Source: a virus
IMG/VR virus record: IMGVR_UViG_3300045988_051359
Reading direction: 5' to 3' (one strand)
DNA length: 64,000 nucleotides
The position numbers were made by a program, and so were the translations under genes. Shown here in pieces: positions 30,397-56,669 of this stretch. Below the pieces are notes generated by a model, which saw only the letters and a list, made by a program, of their open reading frames with translations, made no database searches and was not told where the DNA came from. Positions within the stretch are counted from its first letter, which is position 1, and the number at the start of each line of letters is the position of its first letter.

Positions 30397-30470
30397 TGAC
30401 TTGAGTGGGACTCTAACCCACAACCTGCTCCTTAGGACGGAGATGCTCTATACTATTGAGCTATCAAGCC
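30397..30470 (-). tRNA. tRNA-Arg (anticodon CCT)
   Basis: Acceptor GGCTTGA/TCAAGTC, canonical D-arm GCTC..GAGC, anticodon loop GTCCTAA, T-arm GTGGG-TTAGAGT-CCCAC. Confidence 0.65.
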
Positions 30471-30477
30471 TTGACAG

Positions 30478-30927
30478 TTACATACTAATAGATCCGGTAT
30501 GTTTACCTCTTACTTTAACAGAGTTAGCAGTAATATCTCCCTCTACATCACCACCTACTTCGATGCTGTTAGCTTCTATACTACCTCCTACATTACCTTT
30601 AACTTCGACACTATTACCATGTACAGTAAGAGCGTTTCCGTCAATGTCACATGTATTACAGTTGAGTTCCTTTACATTACCAGTAAAACTGATATGTACG
30701 CTATCATTATTGACTTCAGATATTAATTTACCATTCACATAAATTCTATTCTTTATTTGTGATATGGTAATATCATCTTCATCAATATCAAACGATTCAT
30801 TATCAACAAACAGTTTATTCATGATTCTTCTTATCCAGTTCATAGTACTTAATAAGTTTATCAAACGCCTTAACTCTAGCATTATGTCCCTCCTCACTAT
30901 CAGGGGTCCACCAATAAGCTTTACCAT
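30478..30927 (-). CDS. beta-helix repeat protein (bactofilin-like)
   Basis: C-terminal periodic 'VHGNSVEVKGNVGGSIEANSIEVGGDVEGDITANSVKVRG' repeats. Confidence 0.4.
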   Translation of the reverse strand: MVKLIGGPLIVRRDIMLELRRLINLLSTMNWIRRIMNKLFVDNESFDIDEDDITISQIKNRIYVNGKLISEVNNDSVHISFTGNVKELNCNTCDIDGNALTVHGNSVEVKGNVGGSIEANSIEVGGDVEGDITANSVKVRGKHTGSISM

Positions 30928-31123
30928 ATCTATCTTTAGGAGCCTCTAGAAACTCTCTATTAAATTCCGGAATCATGGTAACTATATCACGATGGCTGTA
31001 AATAGTGATTCCACGTTCGGTTCCTGCCATAGCATGTTCTATACAGAAACACATTCCCCAATATTCAGGATGGGTTACAAATAATTCTTTAGCTCTTTTA
31101 AGAACACTTACAACATCTGTCAT
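30815..31123 (-). CDS. hypothetical protein
   Basis: 102 aa ORF. Confidence 0.45.
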   Translation of the reverse strand: MTDVVSVLKRAKELFVTHPEYWGMCFCIEHAMAGTERGITIYSHRDIVTMIPEFNREFLEAPKDRYGKAYWWTPDSEEGHNARVKAFDKLIKYYELDKKNHE

Positions 31124-31298
31124 TTCACTTTAGATTTAGTTAGTTGGCCAATCATTTGATTTCTAAAGCCCTCAACTTGATGGGGACATATATTAGTAAT
31201 CCATTCTTTAAAATATCTATGATATTTAGTGTGATTACTTTTATAGAACTCTCTTTCCAACCAGTTATACAATTCTCTTTCCATATTTATTAAATTAG

Positions 31299-31370
31299 TA
31301 GTCTTATTCAGAATCGAACTGAAACCTCCATATCCGTAGTATGGTATTCTATCCGTTAAACTATAAGACT
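31299..31370 (-). tRNA. tRNA-Arg (anticodon ACG)
   Basis: Perfect 7-bp acceptor AGTCTTA/TAAGACT, anticodon stem CCATA/TATGG with loop CTACGGA, T-arm TTCAG-TTCGATT-CTGAA. Confidence 0.8.
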
Positions 31371-31371
31371 A

Positions 31372-31400
31372 AAGAATAGAGGGTGTGGGCACACCCTCTA
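31372..31400 (-). terminator. rho-independent terminator-like hairpin
   Basis: 10-bp perfect stem TAGAGGGTGT/ACACCCTCTA followed on the minus strand by UUCUUU. Sits between gene 31407..31667 and tRNA-Arg(ACG). Confidence 0.55.
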
Positions 31401-31670
31401 TTATAATCATTCTATACCATAGTACATCAAGTATAATACTTGCTGCCTTAAACCGTATTTACGTGTAACAACGTTAGCATTAAACCTTCCAGTTATGGCC
31501 GCATTAATGCTCCTTTTCAATTTGTCGGCAGTAAATAACTTACCAGTGGTACCAATTAGTCCATTAGGTTCATTAGCACAAATAAAATCTACAGCTTCAA
31601 ATAACTGTTCTTTAGTCTCTGCACTATTTACCTTTTGCCACTTCTCTAATTCTTTCTCGGAATTCATAAC

Positions 31671-54105: not shown

Positions 54106-54171
54106 GAACCATAGAAGGGTTTGCTGAGCGAATGCTCAACAGATGTTGTATTTAATTATCGCAGTGTGGGG

Positions 54172-54255
54172 TGGGCCCGGGAGGACTCGAACCTCCAGTC
54201 CAATTAAGGAGCAGATTTACAGTCTGCGCGGCTACCAATTACCGGTTACGTGCCC
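54172..54255 (-). tRNA. tRNA-Tyr (anticodon GTA), type II
   Basis: Anticodon stem GCAGA/TCTGC with loop CTGTAAA, 14-nt variable arm, T-arm GGAGG-TTCGAGT-CCTCC. Acceptor GGGCACG/CGGGCCC has one A·G mismatch. Confidence 0.65.
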
Positions 54256-54502
54256 AAATCACACAATCCATATTAACTGATGAATTGTGAGTGCAAAGAT
54301 AAGTAATCCTTCTCACATATAAAAGTTAATATGTATTAAATACAACATGGGGAAATTTAATTGGATATAGACTTACTATCTTCACAGACTGTAAGCCTTT
54401 ATGACCATTTCCAATAGTTGCTGTTTTAAGTAGTAATGGCAATGACACAGATGTAACTATCGGAAATTCTTTATGAGTAATTTAAAACTACAGTAATAAT
54501 AG

Positions 54503-54572
54503 TCAGCTAGGTGGGATTCGAACCCACACCACTTACATAATTTGTAAGTCTTCTAACTTAAATTACTAGCCT
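54503..54572 (-). tRNA. degenerate tRNA-like element (anticodon arm is a 7-bp stem with 5-nt loop; identity unclear)
   Basis: Canonical T-arm GTGGG-TTCGAAT-CCCAC and 6/7 acceptor pairing. Only 70 nt. Central hairpin ACTTACA-AATTA-TGTAAGT. Confidence 0.35.
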
Positions 54573-54680
54573 TACCGTTCACAGGCATCATTCAAATAAA
54601 TCCCATCTAATAGATTAGATATGTAATCAGACTGTCTTTGATTTGTAATGCACTTCTAATTACATAAGGAATTTAATCTT

Positions 54681-56399
54681 CTAGCCTTGTTGAGCGGACA
54701 TAGTGCGCTTATTATAAATTGGCTTCTCAGCCTTCACAGGCTTACTCTGCACGCTTGCATTCTTTCTCGGCGCGTCCTTCTCCAACACCATCATATTCAA
54801 GAGTTCTTGATTCATCATGTAATCGAACAACTCTTTAGGTGTACTAGGATTCTGGAATCTCTTCTCTCCAGTTATAAATCCAGCAGTGGACTGACTTAAT
54901 CCGTTAACAAAGAAACAATTAGAAACATTGCGAATCAATTCAACTTTAGGCTTAGTCTGTTTAGAAGCTAAATGCCAAATAATTAATTTAAACTGTTTAA
55001 CAAACTCTTTGCTAAATCCAGCTTTTAAGAGTTTAGATTTAAATTCAATGAATTGTTCACTGGTGTTTCTTAGATGTCCCAATGCTCCACTGATTACTAA
55101 GCAGCCATTTGGAAATTCACCTTCCCGAATTCCTCCAGATTTAATAGATACGAGCATATCTGCAATCATAGACAGAGTTGGATTAGTTACTAAGGCTTCC
55201 TCAGTATCTGAAATCCACTTACTAGTAGGAGTAGTACCTTCCCACTTACGTAAATCACATCTATTATTAGCAAATACACCATACATGCCAGAGAACGCTA
55301 CAGGCATTAATTCGGAATGATACATAGCATAAGCCTTACCAACACTATAAGCAGAAGTTTCAGTAGCTTCTATCTCAGAATAAGCAGAATTACTAATGTC
55401 TCTAATTACTAATAGTGGCGATGCTTTCTTTAGCTTAGCATTCTTCACGAATGTATTAAAACTAACATCTATAGAAGAACCCATGAATTCTGGTACAAAC
55501 TCCGCAATTTTATCAAGTCCAAATGGCTTAAATAAATTATGCACAAATCCGTCATTACAGGGCTTTCTACGAGTCTTCAGCCATTTCTGATACTTCTCTG
55601 CAAGACCTTGTTGTTTGAGGAATTTAGAGCCTACTAGCAGTGCCAGAGCCTTTCCTGGAACTGTATCAAAGTCGATGTCAAGTAATCTCTTATGGCTTAT
55701 TAATTGCTGCCATTTCATAACTGTACCGCTGTTCTTCATCTTTCTATACTTACGATAAGATGAATAGTCTCCTTCCTCTTTCGGTTTACCATAAAGGCCT
55801 TCAGCTAGATATTTAGCAACTATGTTACGGGCTTTCGCCTCGTCTGTCTTACATATAGTATTAGCTCGAACTCTAGGAAGATACTTCTTTACTAAGTCAC
55901 ATGTTTGCCCTTCTACTAAGCCAGCATAAATAGTCTTTCTAAAGAAATCCCAATCTAGTCTATGCTTATATCCATGTAATTGAGCATCCATTACTAACAT
56001 ATTAATAAAGTCCTTCCAGCATCCTGCTGCCGCAAAGTAAGGCATGTTGGCATGGAACGTAGATTTATGATATGTTGCCAACCACATCATTCTTAATAAA
56101 CCTTCATTCTTTAGACCAACTCCTCGCTGTGTGTCTAAGTAAATAACTCCATTAGGAGTAACTACTCTGCATTTACGTGTAATAAGTCTTACATAGGCAG
56201 TAAATTTGACACACAGCTTTGGATTGGCCTTCCATAGTTCATACATATCTTGACTAACGTCTTCATAAGAACGTGGTTCAAGATAGTGCGCAAGGTTTAC
56301 GAATTGGTCCACAAACACTTTAGTAGGATTTGTATACCTTCGTCCCCCACCTTGAGAGGGCTTAGAGCAAGCCTTTTTAGGCCTTTCATTCATTTCCAT
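54681..56399 (-). CDS. large vWA-domain protein, possibly Ro60/TROVE-like RNA-binding protein
   Basis: 572 aa; MIDAS 'DISNS' at ~residue 334 followed by a vWA-like region. Domain order (~330-aa helical N-terminal part then vWA) matches Ro60/Rsr. Flanked by tRNA-like RNAs. Confidence 0.35.
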   Translation of the reverse strand: MEMNERPKKACSKPSQGGGRRYTNPTKVFVDQFVNLAHYLEPRSYEDVSQDMYELWKANPKLCVKFTAYVRLITRKCRVVTPNGVIYLDTQRGVGLKNEGLLRMMWLATYHKSTFHANMPYFAAAGCWKDFINMLVMDAQLHGYKHRLDWDFFRKTIYAGLVEGQTCDLVKKYLPRVRANTICKTDEAKARNIVAKYLAEGLYGKPKEEGDYSSYRKYRKMKNSGTVMKWQQLISHKRLLDIDFDTVPGKALALLVGSKFLKQQGLAEKYQKWLKTRRKPCNDGFVHNLFKPFGLDKIAEFVPEFMGSSIDVSFNTFVKNAKLKKASPLLVIRDISNSAYSEIEATETSAYSVGKAYAMYHSELMPVAFSGMYGVFANNRCDLRKWEGTTPTSKWISDTEEALVTNPTLSMIADMLVSIKSGGIREGEFPNGCLVISGALGHLRNTSEQFIEFKSKLLKAGFSKEFVKQFKLIIWHLASKQTKPKVELIRNVSNCFFVNGLSQSTAGFITGEKRFQNPSTPKELFDYMMNQELLNMMVLEKDAPRKNASVQSKPVKAEKPIYNKRTMSAQQG

Positions 56400-56597
56400 C
56401 TTGTAAAATTAAATTAGCAGGTTAATCTGAGAGTTCTTTATTCTAATTGATAAAATGGGACACATAGACATCGAGCCAGCTTAATACAACTCGCTACTTA
56501 CACGCTACATGCCCCATATCAAATGAGGAAAGAGGTTCACTTGATGACCTATCTACGTGCTGATTATAACGTAGACCGTGCAGATTCTCTCTTACAC

Positions 56598-56669
56598 AAT
56601 ACTATGATGGACTCAAACCATCTCCACCCAAGTCCTAGTTGGGCGAACTTTCCATTATTCTAATAGTAC
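56598..56669 (-). tRNA. tRNA with anticodon AGG (would read CCU/Pro; A34 unusual for bacteria)
   Basis: Perfect anticodon stem CCCAA/TTGGG with loop CTAGGAC, acceptor GTACTAT/ATAGTAT, D-stem GAAT/GTTC, T-arm GATGG-TTTGAGT-CCATC. 72 nt. Confidence 0.55.

What the first reader, a model, noticed from the sequence alone, without database searches (positions are those of the whole stretch)
30397..56669. Very large tRNA gene complement (~30 genes) spread through an accessory region
Hand-folding finds about 30 minus-strand tRNAs and tRNA-like genes. Those found include Arg ×3, Leu ×2, Met/CAT ×3, Gln, Thr, Asp, Glu ×2, Ser ×2, Phe, His, Ala-like, Trp, Asn, Lys, Cys, Pro, Ile, Gly and Tyr, plus CUA and AGG anticodons. 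Such near-complete sets are characteristic of large virulent phages that reshape host translation. Several members are non-canonical.
Basis: seen in the sequence. Interest (0 to 1): 0.5.

Follow-up and report, generated by a model that had tools for sequence, protein, structure and literature searches.

The report
Large tRNA island, crAss-like gut phage
The window really does carry about 27 working-looking tRNA genes, but this is the already published tRNA block of a ~180-kb "Zeta" crAss-like phage of human-gut Bacteroides; the less ordinary things are the RNAs packed around the tRNAs (a tmRNA, ribozymes, tRNA mimics next to a Ro-like protein, and a conserved hairpin in front of some tRNAs).

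Summary
Confirmed, but already known. ARAGORN tRNA genes, all on the minus strand, at 30396-56669. The Rfam tRNA model scores every one above its threshold. The set covers 19 amino acids. There is no model-supported Val, and there is one amber suppressor (CUA). Gene order is the same in six independent gut assemblies.

The window matches Zeta-group crAss-like phages: contigs of 179-186 kb, GC about 36%, family-A polymerase, and CUA suppressor without recoding. Published tables list 27-29 tRNAs for this clade.

Two "non-canonical tRNAs" are not decoders. The AGG one and 54503-54572 are tRNA-like domains of long conserved RNAs flanking a Ro60-like protein gene.

Other features sit in or beside the island:
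- an HDV-like "theta" ribozyme abutting the CAT-like tRNA
- a tmRNA with a conserved tag (GNTEVRMAA)
- a hammerhead ribozyme
- a tRNA-Ser gene split by an endonuclease cassette that brings its own tRNA-Ser
- a covarying, phage-specific hairpin 5-7 nt upstream of six tRNAs, which matches no Rfam family

No tRNA encodes CCA. The window uses the standard code. The role in translation is inferred, not shown.

The parts
30396..30470 (-). tRNA-Arg (CCU)
   Evidence: ARAGORN; Rfam tRNA 58.5 bits
31298..31370 (-). tRNA-Arg (ACG)
   Evidence: ARAGORN; Rfam 58.8 bits
35338..35422 (-). tRNA-Leu (UAA), long variable arm
   Evidence: ARAGORN; Rfam 50.5 bits
36341..36415 (-). tRNA with CAU anticodon (elongator Met or Ile2; not initiator-like: G1-C72, no 3 G-C pairs in the anticodon stem)
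   Evidence: ARAGORN; Rfam 68.1 bits; sequence
38115..38196 (-). tRNA-Leu (UAG)
   Evidence: ARAGORN; Rfam 55.6 bits
40201..40275 (-). second tRNA with CAU anticodon (Met or Ile2)
   Evidence: ARAGORN; Rfam 64.6 bits
40357..40429 (-). tRNA-Gln (UUG)
   Evidence: ARAGORN; Rfam 52.2 bits
42881..42954 (-). tRNA-Thr (UGU)
   Evidence: ARAGORN; Rfam 65.1 bits
43017..43091 (-). tRNA-Asp (GUC)
   Evidence: ARAGORN; Rfam 59.6 bits
43259..43332 (-). tRNA-Glu (UUC)
   Evidence: ARAGORN; Rfam 56.4 bits
44480..44553 (-). tRNA-Glu (CUC)
   Evidence: ARAGORN; Rfam 56.8 bits
44896..44984 (-). tRNA-Ser (GCU)
   Evidence: ARAGORN; Rfam 46.5 bits
47600..47672 (-). tRNA-Phe (GAA)
   Evidence: ARAGORN; Rfam 69.1 bits
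47950..48024 (-). tRNA-His (GUG)
   Evidence: ARAGORN; Rfam 65.3 bits
48232..48305 (-). tRNA-Ala (UGC), odd D-loop but G3:U70 present
   Evidence: ARAGORN; Rfam 41.5 bits; sequence
48871..48943 (-). tRNA-Arg (UCU)
   Evidence: ARAGORN; Rfam 53.9 bits
50067..50159 (-). tRNA-Ser (UGA), intact copy carried inside the 533-nt insertion
   Evidence: ARAGORN; Rfam 46.2 bits
50636..50711 (-). tRNA-Trp (CCA)
   Evidence: ARAGORN; Rfam 46.9 bits
50973..51045 (-). tRNA-Asn (GUU)
   Evidence: ARAGORN; Rfam 75.3 bits
51477..51552 (-). tRNA-Lys (UUU)
   Evidence: ARAGORN; Rfam 70.1 bits
51647..51721 (-). tRNA-Cys (GCA)
   Evidence: ARAGORN; Rfam 55.9 bits
51819..51892 (-). tRNA-Pro (UGG)
   Evidence: ARAGORN; Rfam 65.9 bits
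51965..52040 (-). tRNA-Ile (GAU)
   Evidence: ARAGORN; Rfam 71.7 bits
52262..52334 (-). amber-suppressor tRNA (CUA), isotype undetermined; nearest non-suppressor relatives are phage tRNA-Arg(UCU) and tRNA-Trp
   Evidence: ARAGORN; Rfam 56.8 bits; nearest-neighbour comparison
54011..54083 (-). tRNA-Gly (UCC)
   Evidence: ARAGORN; Rfam 58.5 bits
54169..54256 (-). tRNA-Tyr (GUA), long variable arm
   Evidence: ARAGORN; Rfam 41.8 bits
52181..52261 (-). non-canonical tRNA-like gene with CAU anticodon loop (CTCATAA) and 14-nt D-loop; lies 2-3 nt after the suppressor, and its 3' discriminator abuts the ribozyme cleavage site
   Evidence: sequence; Rfam tRNA 20.8 bits, below threshold; ARAGORN only at -ps85
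52117..52180 (-). minimal HDV-like ('theta') self-cleaving ribozyme: P1 GAAUCUC/GAGAUUC, P2 UAGUCGAA/UUCGACUA, P3 ACC/GGU, L3 UCCACGU, P1.1 CC/GG, J4/2 CUAA
   Evidence: Rfam RF02682 38.1 bits (threshold 44), E 2e-4; elements read; only such motif in the window; compensatory changes in P2 and P3 in L057
56598..56669 (-). tRNA-like domain ('Pro-AGG'); not a decoding tRNA
   Evidence: Rfam tRNA 49.6 bits; anticodon loop deleted in close relatives L010 and L058, 5-nt loop in the L020 group; acceptor and T arms covary
56426..56765 (-). conserved non-coding RNA of about 340-360 nt directly upstream of the Ro-like gene: RAGATH-34 motif (56665-56762), the tRNA-like domain, and a conserved 3' extension that pairs back to the RAGATH-34 tail
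   Evidence: Rfam RF03103 86.9 bits; nhmmer; alignment and fold; same arrangement in L020, L023, L138
54681..56399 (-). Ro60-like (TROVE plus vWA-like) RNA-binding protein, 572 aa
   Evidence: phrog_850 'RNA-binding protein'; weak DUF2828; AF2 model pLDDT 78.9; the two strongest Foldseek PDB hits (the only ones with probability 1.00) are Ro proteins 2nvo and 1yvp
54257..54680 (-). conserved non-coding region of about 430 nt downstream of the Ro-like gene, containing the tRNA-like element 54503-54572 (anticodon loop AAATTAT, no U33)
   Evidence: Rfam tRNA 40.6 bits; nhmmer; alignment, (the L020-group counterpart has a 5-nt loop and an encoded CCA)
58290..58805 (-). tmRNA: acceptor with G3:U70, T arm, tag frame GGC AAC ACU GAA GUA AGA AUG GCA GCG UAA = GNTEVRMAA*
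   Evidence: Rfam RF00023 55.7 bits (threshold 47); sequence; tag conserved with synonymous changes, and 78-82 bit tmRNA hits in distant relatives
52046..52100 (-). tRNA 5'-leader hairpin motif (U-AAGAAGAC..CAGCA..GUCUUCU-G), 5 nt before tRNA-Ile
51897..51943 (-). leader hairpin motif (AAGAAGUC/GACUUCU variant) before tRNA-Pro(UGG)
51559..51629 (-). leader hairpin motif before tRNA-Lys
48949..48999 (-). leader hairpin motif before tRNA-Arg(UCU)
44990..45033 (-). leader hairpin motif before tRNA-Ser(GCU)
42960..43001 (-). leader hairpin motif before tRNA-Thr
50596..50627 (-). 5' half of a disrupted ancestral tRNA-Ser(UGA) gene
   Evidence: intact in relatives L001-L006, L062
50016..50062 (-). 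3' half (anticodon-stem 3' strand, variable arm, T arm, acceptor) of the disrupted tRNA-Ser
50262..50558 (-). PD-(D/E)XK endonuclease ORF (98 aa) inside the 533-nt insertion that splits the tRNA-Ser gene
   Evidence: Pfam PDDEXK_5 31.4 bits (cut-off 26.1); phrog_5018

Best explanation
This is the conserved tRNA gene island of a large (about 180 kb) Zeta-group crAss-like phage of human-gut Bacteroidales. It holds 26 standard-looking tRNA genes for 19 amino acids plus one amber-suppressor tRNA(CUA). All are co-oriented with the surrounding small early or accessory genes and interspersed among them, so they are presumably made from the same long transcripts.

Shown:
- The genes exist and pass covariance-model scoring.
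- Their order is conserved in independent assemblies.
- None encodes the 3' CCA.
- Most have U at position -1, the base bacterial RNase P is reported to prefer (my knowledge of the RNase P literature, not tested here).
- Where the phage could have picked any isoacceptor, it always carries the U34 reader of the A-ending codon. The phage genes are AT-rich at third positions (GC3 0.30).

Inferred:
- The precursors are cut by host RNase P and 3' nucleases.
- In one case (the suppressor plus CAU-like pair) the 3' end is released by a cis HDV-like theta ribozyme.
- The ends are then completed by CCA addition. A phage PolyA_pol-family nucleotidyltransferase and a polynucleotide kinase-phosphatase lie just past the window start.
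- The mature tRNAs let the phage translate its AT-rich genes with little dependence on the host tRNA pool.

The island is part of a wider conserved RNA module: tmRNA, then a RAGATH-34/tRNA-like RNA, then a Ro60-like protein, then the tRNA array.
For: Existence:
- 27 ARAGORN calls.
- Rfam tRNA scores of 41.5-75.3 bits for all 27.
- 0 calls in 1.28 Mb of shuffled sequence.
- The same tRNA order in six independent assemblies, L001-L006.

Phage identity:
- The source proteins sit on contigs of 179-186 kb from human-gut metagenomes.
- The family-A DNA polymerase is 40-47% identical to crAss001, IAS virus and cr111.
- The crAss-type replication block is present: Toprim primase, DnaB, SNF2-type helicase and AAA+ ATPase.
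See also PMC7886860.

Maturation:
- No encoded CCA. 26 of 28 have C after the discriminator, and 20 of 28 have U at -1.
- The theta ribozyme lies exactly at the 3' end of the CAU-like tRNA, with covariation in P2 and P3. This is the arrangement described in PMC10879173.
- PolyA_pol and PNKP genes lie in L007 and L008 just beyond window position 1.

Codon match:
- GC3 is 0.30. Phage tRNAs read 77% of sense codons by simple wobble.
- All 11 A-ending codons read by the phage's U34 tRNAs are more used in the phage than in a small Bacteroidaceae proxy sample. The largest differences are AGA +0.47, UUA +0.31 and CAA +0.28.
Against: - No expression, processing or aminoacylation data are available.
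- The overall test of Watson-Crick-cognate codons against the proxy host is null (Mann-Whitney p = 0.61). The proxy is only about 4,000 codons from unrelated Bacteroidaceae MAGs.
- The most used phage codons in four-codon boxes (GCU 0.56, ACU 0.56, CCU 0.47, GGU 0.45, UCU 0.37) have no dedicated phage tRNA unless U34 reads U.
- Val has no supported tRNA.
- Choosing U34 isoacceptors is also what a minimal one-tRNA-per-box set would do, so it does not prove adaptation to codon usage.
- Assignment to the Zeta group rests on properties and polymerase similarity. The TerL tree that defines the group was not used, because TerL is not in the window.
Confidence: 0.8

Rival explanations
1. Counter-defence or shut-off independence, not exclusive of the main explanation. 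The near-complete set exists mainly to replace host tRNAs that are cleaved by host anticodon nucleases or lost during host shut-off. It would work together with an RNA repair and quality-control kit.
For: - The set is nearly complete rather than limited to rare codons.
- The same region or its flanks encode a tmRNA and a Ro60-like protein with tRNA-mimic RNAs.
- They also encode a ligase with DNA-ligase and RNA-ligase domain hits, a polynucleotide kinase-phosphatase and a PolyA_pol-family nucleotidyltransferase.
Against: - No host nuclease or cleavage site is known for this phage-host pair.
- No anticodon-loop peculiarities were tested.
- PNKP, ligase and the CCA enzyme have ordinary alternative roles: resolving ribozyme-made cyclic phosphates, DNA replication and CCA addition.
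Confidence: 0.35
2. Genetic-code switch. The island's key member is the CUA suppressor, released by the theta ribozyme. It would allow late genes with in-frame TAG (code 15) to be translated.
For: - Suppressor tRNA(CUA) scores 56.8 bits.
- A tRNA plus theta ribozyme lies immediately downstream.
- In PMC10879173, 96% of phages with suppressor-associated theta ribozymes were predicted to use code 15.
Against: - In the window, TAG terminates 16 of 89 ORFs of at least 60 aa. These ORFs show no excess of tandem stops.
- Treating TAG as sense gives no gain in ORF length.
- A 1,230-residue reading frame of a virion-type gene beyond the window has no in-frame TAG.
- PMC12386605 reports a CTA suppressor but no suppression for this clade.
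- The ribozyme abuts the CAU-like tRNA, not the suppressor itself.
- The late gene block was not available to me.
Confidence: 0.08
3. Mostly decayed or decoy tRNA-like sequences: pseudogenes, integration-site remnants, or hand-folding artefacts rather than functional tRNAs.
For: - Some elements are of that kind.
- These include the two halves of a split tRNA-Ser and the AGG and 54503 tRNA-like domains.
- They also include the 63750-63842 element with a 4-nt anticodon loop and the unsupported Val-like fold.
Against: - 27 genes pass the covariance model with intact 7-nt anticodon loops.
- Their sequence and order are conserved across independent assemblies.
- Identity elements are present where checkable, for example G3:U70 in Ala.
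Confidence: 0.04

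Closest known systems
tRNA gene blocks of Zeta-group crAss-like phages (phage Lera and 42 related genomes, PMC12386605; Yutin et al. 2021, PMC7886860)
   Different: Those papers count tRNAs and suppressors. In the text searched they do not mention the tmRNA, ribozymes, Ro-like protein and tRNA-mimic RNAs, the leader hairpin or the split tRNA-Ser (0 occurrences of 'tmRNA' and 'ribozyme'). I did not show that this window is one of their listed genomes.
tRNA clusters of large virulent phages (T4, T5, KVP40-type and jumbo phages)
   Same: Many tRNA genes on one strand in a non-structural region of a large lytic phage, proposed to match phage codon usage or sustain late translation (my knowledge of the literature; partly cited in PMC10879173).
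   Different: Here the genes are spread over 26 kb between small ORFs rather than packed in a tight array. None encodes CCA. They are accompanied by a suppressor, a tmRNA and small ribozymes.
tRNA-associated theta ribozymes (minimal HDV-like ribozymes of gut phages; Kienbeck et al. 2024, PMC10879173)
   Same: A minimal HDV-like fold whose cleavage site (G1) directly follows the discriminator base of a phage tRNA with a CAU anticodon. The phage is a Bacteroidota gut phage that also carries a CUA suppressor and a CCA-adding-type enzyme.
   Different: - It scores below the Rfam gathering score of the F. prausnitzii HDV family (38.1 vs 44 bits).
- The adjacent tRNA is itself non-canonical (14-nt D-loop).
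- The suppressor is one gene further upstream.
- The genome region seen is not recoded.
- The exact sequence was not found in the held supplementary files.
Bacterial and phage Y RNAs (YrlA type) encoded next to Ro60 orthologues (Chen et al. 2014, PMC4201824)
   Same: Non-coding RNAs with a tRNA-like domain (acceptor, D and T arms, aberrant anticodon loop) encoded immediately beside a Ro60-like gene. That paper reports phage examples.
   Different: - The RNAs here are about 340-430 nt, against 80-130 nt.
- The upstream one contains the RAGATH-34 motif.
- No Rfam Y-RNA family matches at E<=10.
- The protein is only a fold-level Ro relative (11-12% identity, TM about 0.33).
- No Ro-binding helix was identified.
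Phage-encoded tmRNAs
   Same: tRNA-like ends with G3:U70 and an internal tag frame ending in Ala-Ala-stop. tmRNA genes are occasionally reported in gut phage genomes (7 of 788 in PMC12291355).
   Different: It is 516 nt with large insertions and is missed by ARAGORN even in relatives. The tag GNTEVRMAA is conserved across diverged Zeta-like phages. I found no published description for crAss-like phages.

Membership tests
tRNA (Rfam RF00005) | Covariance-model score at or above the gathering score (29 bits) | tested here: met
   All 27 ARAGORN genes score 41.5-75.3 bits. The CAU-like 52181-52261 fails at 20.8 bits. Val-like 34133-34204 and 63750-63842 give no hit at E<=10.
tRNA (decoding) | Seven-nucleotide anticodon loop with U33, conserved among relatives | tested here: met
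   Met for 26 standard genes and the CUA suppressor (sequences). Not met for 54503-54572 (loop AAATTAT) or 63750-63842 (4-nt loop). Not met for the AGG element either: its loop is deleted in L010 and L058 and is 5 nt in the L020 group.
tRNA (decoding) | Mature 3' CCA end and aminoacylation | not testable with these tools
   CCA is not encoded in any gene. It would have to be added after transcription.
Zeta-group crAss-like phages (Crassvirales) | Placement in the Zeta clade of the TerL tree | not testable with these tools
   TerL and the structural block are outside the window and outside the about 20 kb of flanks I could fetch.
Zeta-group crAss-like phages (Crassvirales) | Genome of 145-192 kb from human gut with crAss-type replication block (DnaG-type primase, DnaB, SNF2 helicase, AAA+ ATPase) and polA or polB | tested here: met
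   Contigs of 179-186 kb. Toprim, DnaB_C, ResIII/Helicase_C and AAA hits. PolA is 40-47% identical to crAss-like phages.
Theta / minimal HDV-like ribozyme | Nested double-pseudoknot elements P1, P1.1, P2, P3, short P4, and a cytosine at the first position of J4/2 | tested here: met
   All elements were read from the sequence. The motif scan finds this one site only. P2 and P3 covary in L057. Rfam RF02682 gives 38.1 bits, below its gathering score of 44.
Theta / minimal HDV-like ribozyme | Cleavage site within 5 nt of a tRNA 3' end | tested here: met
   G1 of the ribozyme (52180) directly follows the discriminator A (52181) of the CAU-like tRNA.
Theta / minimal HDV-like ribozyme | Self-scission | not testable with these tools
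   Needs an in vitro transcription and cleavage assay.
tmRNA (Rfam RF00023) | Model score above the gathering score, tRNA-Ala-like ends with G3:U70, and an internal tag reading frame | tested here: met
   55.7 bits against 47. GGGCCAU/AUGGUCC has G3:U70. The tag is GNTEVRMAA*, or GNTTYRMAA* in L140, with synonymous changes. Relatives score 78-82 bits. ARAGORN does not call it.
Y RNA / YrlA with Ro60 | Encoded adjacent to a Ro60 orthologue | tested here: met
   The 572-aa protein's two strongest PDB fold matches (the only ones with probability 1.00) are Ro proteins: 2nvo at E 1.7e-5 and 1yvp_B at E 1.4e-3. Both RNAs abut the gene, and the synteny is kept in the L020 group and in L138.
Y RNA / YrlA with Ro60 | tRNA-like domain | tested here: met
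   Rfam tRNA scores of 49.6 and 40.6 bits. Acceptor and T arms covary.
Y RNA / YrlA with Ro60 | Sequence and structure match to the described family, and a Ro-binding stem | tested here: not met
   No Rfam Y-RNA family hit at E<=10 over 51900-59000. The RNAs are 3-4 times longer than described Y RNAs (PMC4201824). No Ro-binding helix was identified. I therefore say 'works like', not 'is a YrlA'.
Stop-codon-recoded (code 15) phage | In-frame TAG in genes, with longer ORFs when TAG is read as sense | tested here: not met
   TAG ends 16 of 89 ORFs. There is no gain in ORF length under code 15. Late genes were not examined.
Hammerhead ribozyme | CUGAUGA, stem II, GAAA, stem III, then a cleavage triplet, closed by stem I | tested here: met
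   The full core was read at 60395-60468, minus strand. Rfam Hammerhead_3 gives only 20.8 bits, presumably because the topology is not type III.

The most novel reading that the evidence does not exclude
The tRNA island may be one half of a conserved, self-contained RNA-handling module of Zeta crAss-like phages. Several of its parts have, as far as I could find, not been described.

1. A phage-specific, covarying hairpin with an invariant CAGCA, placed 5-7 nt before particular tRNAs. It would be a new class of tRNA-leader element, either a processing or stability signal or the binding site of a phage factor.
2. The orphan Rfam motif RAGATH-34 would be the 5' part of a long Y-RNA-like tRNA mimic that works with a phage Ro60-like protein.
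3. A divergent tmRNA with its own conserved tag.

Together these would mean the phage brings its own tRNA maturation, RNA quality control and ribosome rescue.
Probability: 0.35. Interest if true: 0.6.

Novelty: already known. Interest (0 to 1): 0.33.

Why it matters
The finding as written is textbook and already tabulated for this very phage clade, so it adds little. It would matter only through what surrounds the tRNAs. Zeta crAss-like phages are among the most abundant human-gut viruses (Yutin 2021), and none of the papers I read reports a cultured Zeta-group phage.

The window shows that their 'tRNA block' also holds a conserved tmRNA, small ribozymes, a Ro-like protein with tRNA-mimic RNAs, and a conserved leader hairpin. 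These give concrete, testable handles on how such phages make and protect their own translation components. They also give a possible function for an orphan Rfam motif, RAGATH-34.

There is a practical point as well. Automatic tRNA counts in these genomes include tRNA-like domains that are not decoders, and they miss the tmRNA.

Tried and rejected
- **Amber recoding in the window.** Rejected. TAG is a normal stop, and ORFs do not lengthen when TAG is read as sense.
- **TAG-split gene.** One gene appeared split in relative L009 but whole in L010. This turned out to be a different N-terminal region, not in-frame TAGs.
- **tRNA-Val.** The only candidate (34133-34204) is called by ARAGORN at a relaxed threshold but gets no covariance-model support. 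It is left as unsupported.
- **Host origin of the leader hairpin.** A scan of 596 Gb of bacterial genomes gave 52 stretches (53 matches). My estimate of chance is about 34. None is followed by a tRNA, and only 3 have the conserved upstream U. The motif is therefore phage-specific.
- **Known RNA family for the hairpin.** None matched in Rfam at E<=1 to 10. Hammerhead and HDV core scans find nothing there. Folding energies of the six copies are unremarkable. The evidence is covariation, not stability.
- **ARAGORN for the tmRNA.** It fails at default and relaxed settings, in the window and in relatives.
- **PurZ.** I asked whether the adenylosuccinate-synthetase-like ORF (40445-41599) is PurZ, the diaminopurine-pathway enzyme. 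All PDB sequence matches are entries named adenylosuccinate synthetase (the strongest are bacterial PurA), and no PurZ entry matched. PurZ is not supported.
- **Codon usage against the host.** No host genome could be fetched. A crude proxy (two Bacteroidaceae MAG fragments, 4,041 codons) gave a null overall test and a consistent direction only for A-ending codons. This is weak.
- **Literature searches.** RAGATH-34 gave no paper. The crAss promoter search was uninformative. The exact ribozyme sequence was not in the held supplements of PMC10879173.
- **Suppressor isotype.** Nearest neighbours are phage tRNA-Arg(UCU) and tRNA-Trp, but identity elements do not settle it.

Full report
**Observation.** ARAGORN on the whole window returns 27 tRNA genes. 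None lies on the plus strand, and 20 shuffled copies of the window give none. The Rfam tRNA covariance model (gathering score 29 bits) scores 25 of the 27 at 41.5-75.3 bits in the whole-window scan. In more permissive scans it scores Tyr at 41.8 bits and the AGG gene at 49.6 bits. The whole-window scan also finds one element ARAGORN does not call, 54503-54572 at 40.6 bits.

I located that element at 52181-52261. It has a cloverleaf with acceptor UGCGGAG/CUCCGCA, anticodon loop CUCAUAA and a 14-nt D-loop. It scores only 20.8 bits and is called by ARAGORN only at a relaxed threshold. The stated refutation test, rejection by a covariance model, is not met.

**Composition of the set.** The 27 comprise Arg(CCU, ACG, UCU), Leu(UAA, UAG), two CAU genes, Gln, Thr, Asp, Glu(UUC, CUC), Ser(GCU, UGA), Phe, His, Ala, Trp, Asn, Lys, Cys, Pro(UGG), Ile(GAU), Gly, Tyr, a CUA suppressor and the AGG element.
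- The 'Ala-like' gene has G3:U70.
- Neither strong CAU gene looks like an initiator: both have G1-C72 and lack the G-C run in the anticodon stem. One may be the lysidine-type Ile2 tRNA for AUA, which makes up 32% of Ile codons. This was not tested.
- There is no supported tRNA-Val.
- No gene encodes CCA. 26 of 28 have C directly after the discriminator, and 20 of 28 have U at -1.
- The order of the genes is identical in six independent metagenome assemblies, apart from a lost Thr in one and a CUC-to-UUC anticodon change in another.

**What the window is.** All genes run on the minus strand and GC is about 36%. The left half encodes an anaerobic ribonucleotide reductase, ligase, helicases, DnaB and a Toprim primase. 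The tRNA region is a run of small ORFs, mostly without family matches.

Exact-protein look-ups put the window on human-gut contigs of 179-186 kb seen in hundreds of samples. The family-A DNA polymerase just beyond the window start is 40-47% identical to crAss001, IAS virus and cr111. [quoted passage not shown] Yutin et al. 2021 had already noted that the Zeta group encodes multiple tRNAs, including suppressors (PMC7886860).

The finding as written is therefore already known. Placement in the Zeta clade by TerL could not be done, because TerL is outside the sequence I could reach.

**Two 'tRNAs' that are not tRNAs.** The AGG element (56598-56669) is fused to a strong match to the orphan Rfam motif RAGATH-34 (56665-56762, 86.9 bits). 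It is followed by a further conserved stretch. The whole RNA, about 340-360 nt, is alignable between this phage and a diverged group (L020, L022, L023, L067).
- In close relatives (L010, L058) nine bases that include the 'anticodon loop' are deleted.
- In the diverged group the loop is 5 nt with a different 'anticodon'.
- Across these sequences the acceptor and T arms keep pairing through compensatory changes.

The second element (54503-54572; loop AAAUUAU, no U33) lies in a conserved region of about 430 nt. Its counterpart in the diverged group has a 5-nt loop and an encoded CCA.

Between the two RNAs lies a 572-aa ORF. It matches phrog_850 'RNA-binding protein'. Its AlphaFold model (pLDDT 78.9) has as its two strongest PDB matches, the only ones with Foldseek probability 1.00, the Ro proteins of Deinococcus and Xenopus. 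The order RNA, Ro-like gene, RNA is kept where the protein is 63% identical. RAGATH-34 again precedes the gene where it is about 44% identical (L138).

Ro60 orthologues with adjacent tRNA-mimicking Y RNAs are known in bacteria and phages (PMC4201824). These RNAs behave like that. They are much longer, however, and match no Rfam Y-RNA family, so I do not file them as YrlA.

**Ribozymes.** Immediately after the discriminator base of the CAU-like tRNA starts a minimal HDV-like ribozyme (52180 downwards). Its elements are P1 GAAUCUC/GAGAUUC, P2 UAGUCGAA/UUCGACUA, P3 ACC/GGU, L3 UCCACGU with P1.1 to GG, and J4/2 CUAA. It scores 38.1 bits, below the family threshold of 44. It is the only such motif in the window. 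A variant in another 185-kb contig has compensatory changes in P2 and P3.

This is the 'theta ribozyme' arrangement of Kienbeck et al. 2024, where tRNA-Met, suppressor and Leu are the usual partners. Here the order is suppressor, 2-3 nt, CAU-like tRNA, ribozyme.

A complete hammerhead core lies at 60395-60468. A RAGATH-1 hammerhead lies about 1 kb beyond the window end in relative L010.

**tmRNA.** Rfam finds a tmRNA at 58290-58805 (55.7 bits, threshold 47). It has a tRNA-Ala-like acceptor with G3:U70 and a T arm. Its tag frame reads GNTEVRMAA-stop. The tag is identical in L010 and L138 with a synonymous change. It reads GNTTYRMAA in the distant L140, again with synonymous changes at Gly and Ala. 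The tmRNAs of those relatives score 78-82 bits and occupy the same position upstream of the Ro-like gene. ARAGORN misses all of them. I found no mention of a tmRNA in the two crAss Zeta papers.

**A conserved hairpin in tRNA leaders.** Six tRNAs are preceded by U-AAGAAGNC-N2-3-CAGCA-(17-48 nt)-GN'CUUCU-G, ending 5-7 nt before tRNA position +1. They are Ile, Pro-UGG, Lys, Arg-UCU, Ser-GCU and Thr.
- A pattern scan of IMG/VR found it in 74 stretches from contigs of 93-270 kb. The great majority lie directly upstream of tRNA genes, mostly tRNA-Ile(GAU) and tRNA-Ser(GCU), even where the tRNA and loop sequences are quite different.
- With the variable stem position left free, every one of 89 tRNA-linked copies was complementary there (A-U, G-C, C-G or U-A). 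AAG-to-AGG goes with UCU-to-UCC, and the loop-side pairs covary. The structure is 92% paired against 83% in shuffles, and the covariation score is 0.248 against 0.079 (0 of 500 shuffles reach it).
- The same pattern in 596 Gb of bacterial genomes gave 53 matches, about chance level, and none is next to a tRNA.
- No Rfam family matches it.

Its function is unknown. I think a processing or stability signal for the polycistronic precursors, or a binding site for a phage factor, is most likely. Evidence for a helix rests on covariation; folding energies are ordinary.

**A split tRNA gene.** After tRNA-Trp lies the 5' half of a tRNA-Ser(UGA) gene. The 3' half follows 533 nt later. Relatives carry the uninterrupted gene at this place. 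The insertion carries a PD-(D/E)XK endonuclease ORF and a different, intact tRNA-Ser(UGA). It looks like a homing-type cassette that destroys its target and brings a replacement.

**How the island most likely works.**
- Shown: real, conserved, co-oriented tRNA genes without CCA; a cis ribozyme at one 3' end; AT-rich codon usage (GC3 0.30); and U34 readers of A-ending codons in every box where there was a choice.
- Inferred: co-transcription with the neighbouring ORFs; 5' cutting by host RNase P; 3' trimming or ribozyme cleavage; removal of the cyclic phosphate by the phage polynucleotide kinase-phosphatase; and CCA addition by the phage PolyA_pol-family enzyme. Both enzymes lie just beyond the window start. 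The mature tRNAs would then support phage translation.

Against a small Bacteroidaceae proxy, all 11 A-ending codons read by phage U34 tRNAs are enriched in the phage. AGA (+0.47), UUA (+0.31) and CAA (+0.28) show the largest differences. The overall test is null, however, and the proxy is poor.

The rival reading is that the set mainly insures against host tRNA cleavage or shut-off. It fits the neighbouring RNA repair and quality-control genes and is not exclusive of the main explanation. A role in code switching is not supported in the sequence seen.

**Verdict.** Interest lies in the by-products listed above.

Noticed in passing
window 42960-43001, 44990-45033, 48949-48999, 51559-51629, 51897-51943, 52046-52100 (minus strand): A conserved hairpin, U-AAGAAGNC..CAGCA..GN'CUUCU-G, lies 5-7 nt upstream of six tRNAs. 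It is widespread upstream of tRNAs in IMG/VR contigs of 93-270 kb. Its stem positions covary. It is absent next to tRNAs in 596 Gb of bacterial genomes and matches no Rfam family. Function is unknown.
   Followed up: partly
window 58290-58805 (minus strand): A phage tmRNA of 516 nt, missed by ARAGORN, with tag GNTEVRMAA. It is conserved in distant Zeta-like relatives (L138, L140) at the same position upstream of the Ro-like gene.
   Followed up: yes
window 54257-56765 (minus strand): A Ro60-like protein gene (54681-56399) is flanked by two long conserved non-coding RNAs, each with a tRNA-like domain. The upstream RNA contains the orphan Rfam motif RAGATH-34, which suggests that motif is part of a Y-RNA-like partner of a phage Ro protein.
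   Followed up: partly
window 50016-50627 (minus strand): The ancestral tRNA-Ser(UGA) gene is split by a 533-nt insertion. The insertion carries a PD-(D/E)XK endonuclease ORF and its own, different tRNA-Ser(UGA). Relatives have the uninterrupted gene.
   Followed up: partly
window 60395-60468 (minus strand); L010 8040-8113: A complete hammerhead ribozyme core lies in a 109-nt intergenic gap. A RAGATH-1 hammerhead (82.6 bits) lies about 1 kb beyond the window end in a close relative.
   Followed up: partly
window 63750-63842 (minus strand); L010 9283-9357: Another tRNA-like element, with good acceptor and T arms but a 4-nt 'anticodon' loop and a 32-nt insertion in the D-loop. In relative L010 it is 75 nt with loop AUCUA, and ARAGORN calls it tRNA(CUA). 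The Rfam tRNA model does not match the window copy.
   Followed up: partly
3' flanks of all tRNAs, 30396-56669: No tRNA encodes CCA, yet 26 of 28 have a C immediately after the discriminator, followed by a non-C base. This may relate to how 3' ends are trimmed and completed.
   Followed up: no
window 8195-10261 versus L007 1-3200 and L008 1-3879: The anaerobic ribonucleotide reductase gene is intact in the window (688 aa). In two relatives it is broken into three pieces by HNH and GIY-YIG endonuclease genes, as expected for intron or homing-endonuclease invasion in Zeta crAss-like phages.
   Followed up: no
window 40445-41599 (minus strand): An adenylosuccinate-synthetase-like ORF sits inside the tRNA region. 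All PDB sequence matches are entries named adenylosuccinate synthetase (the strongest are bacterial PurA), and no PurZ entry matched, so a diaminopurine pathway is not supported.
   Followed up: partly
L005 (relative), position equivalent to window 44480-44553: In one assembly the tRNA-Glu(CUC) gene has anticodon UUC instead. This is an anticodon switch between close relatives.
   Followed up: no
window 35915-36316, 32969-33427, 45049-47037 (minus strand): ORFs interspersed with the tRNAs include one with a weak ribosomal L7/L12 C-terminal-domain match (23.6 bits, below the cut-off), an RNase H, and a 662-aa SPFH/Band-7 protein.
   Followed up: no
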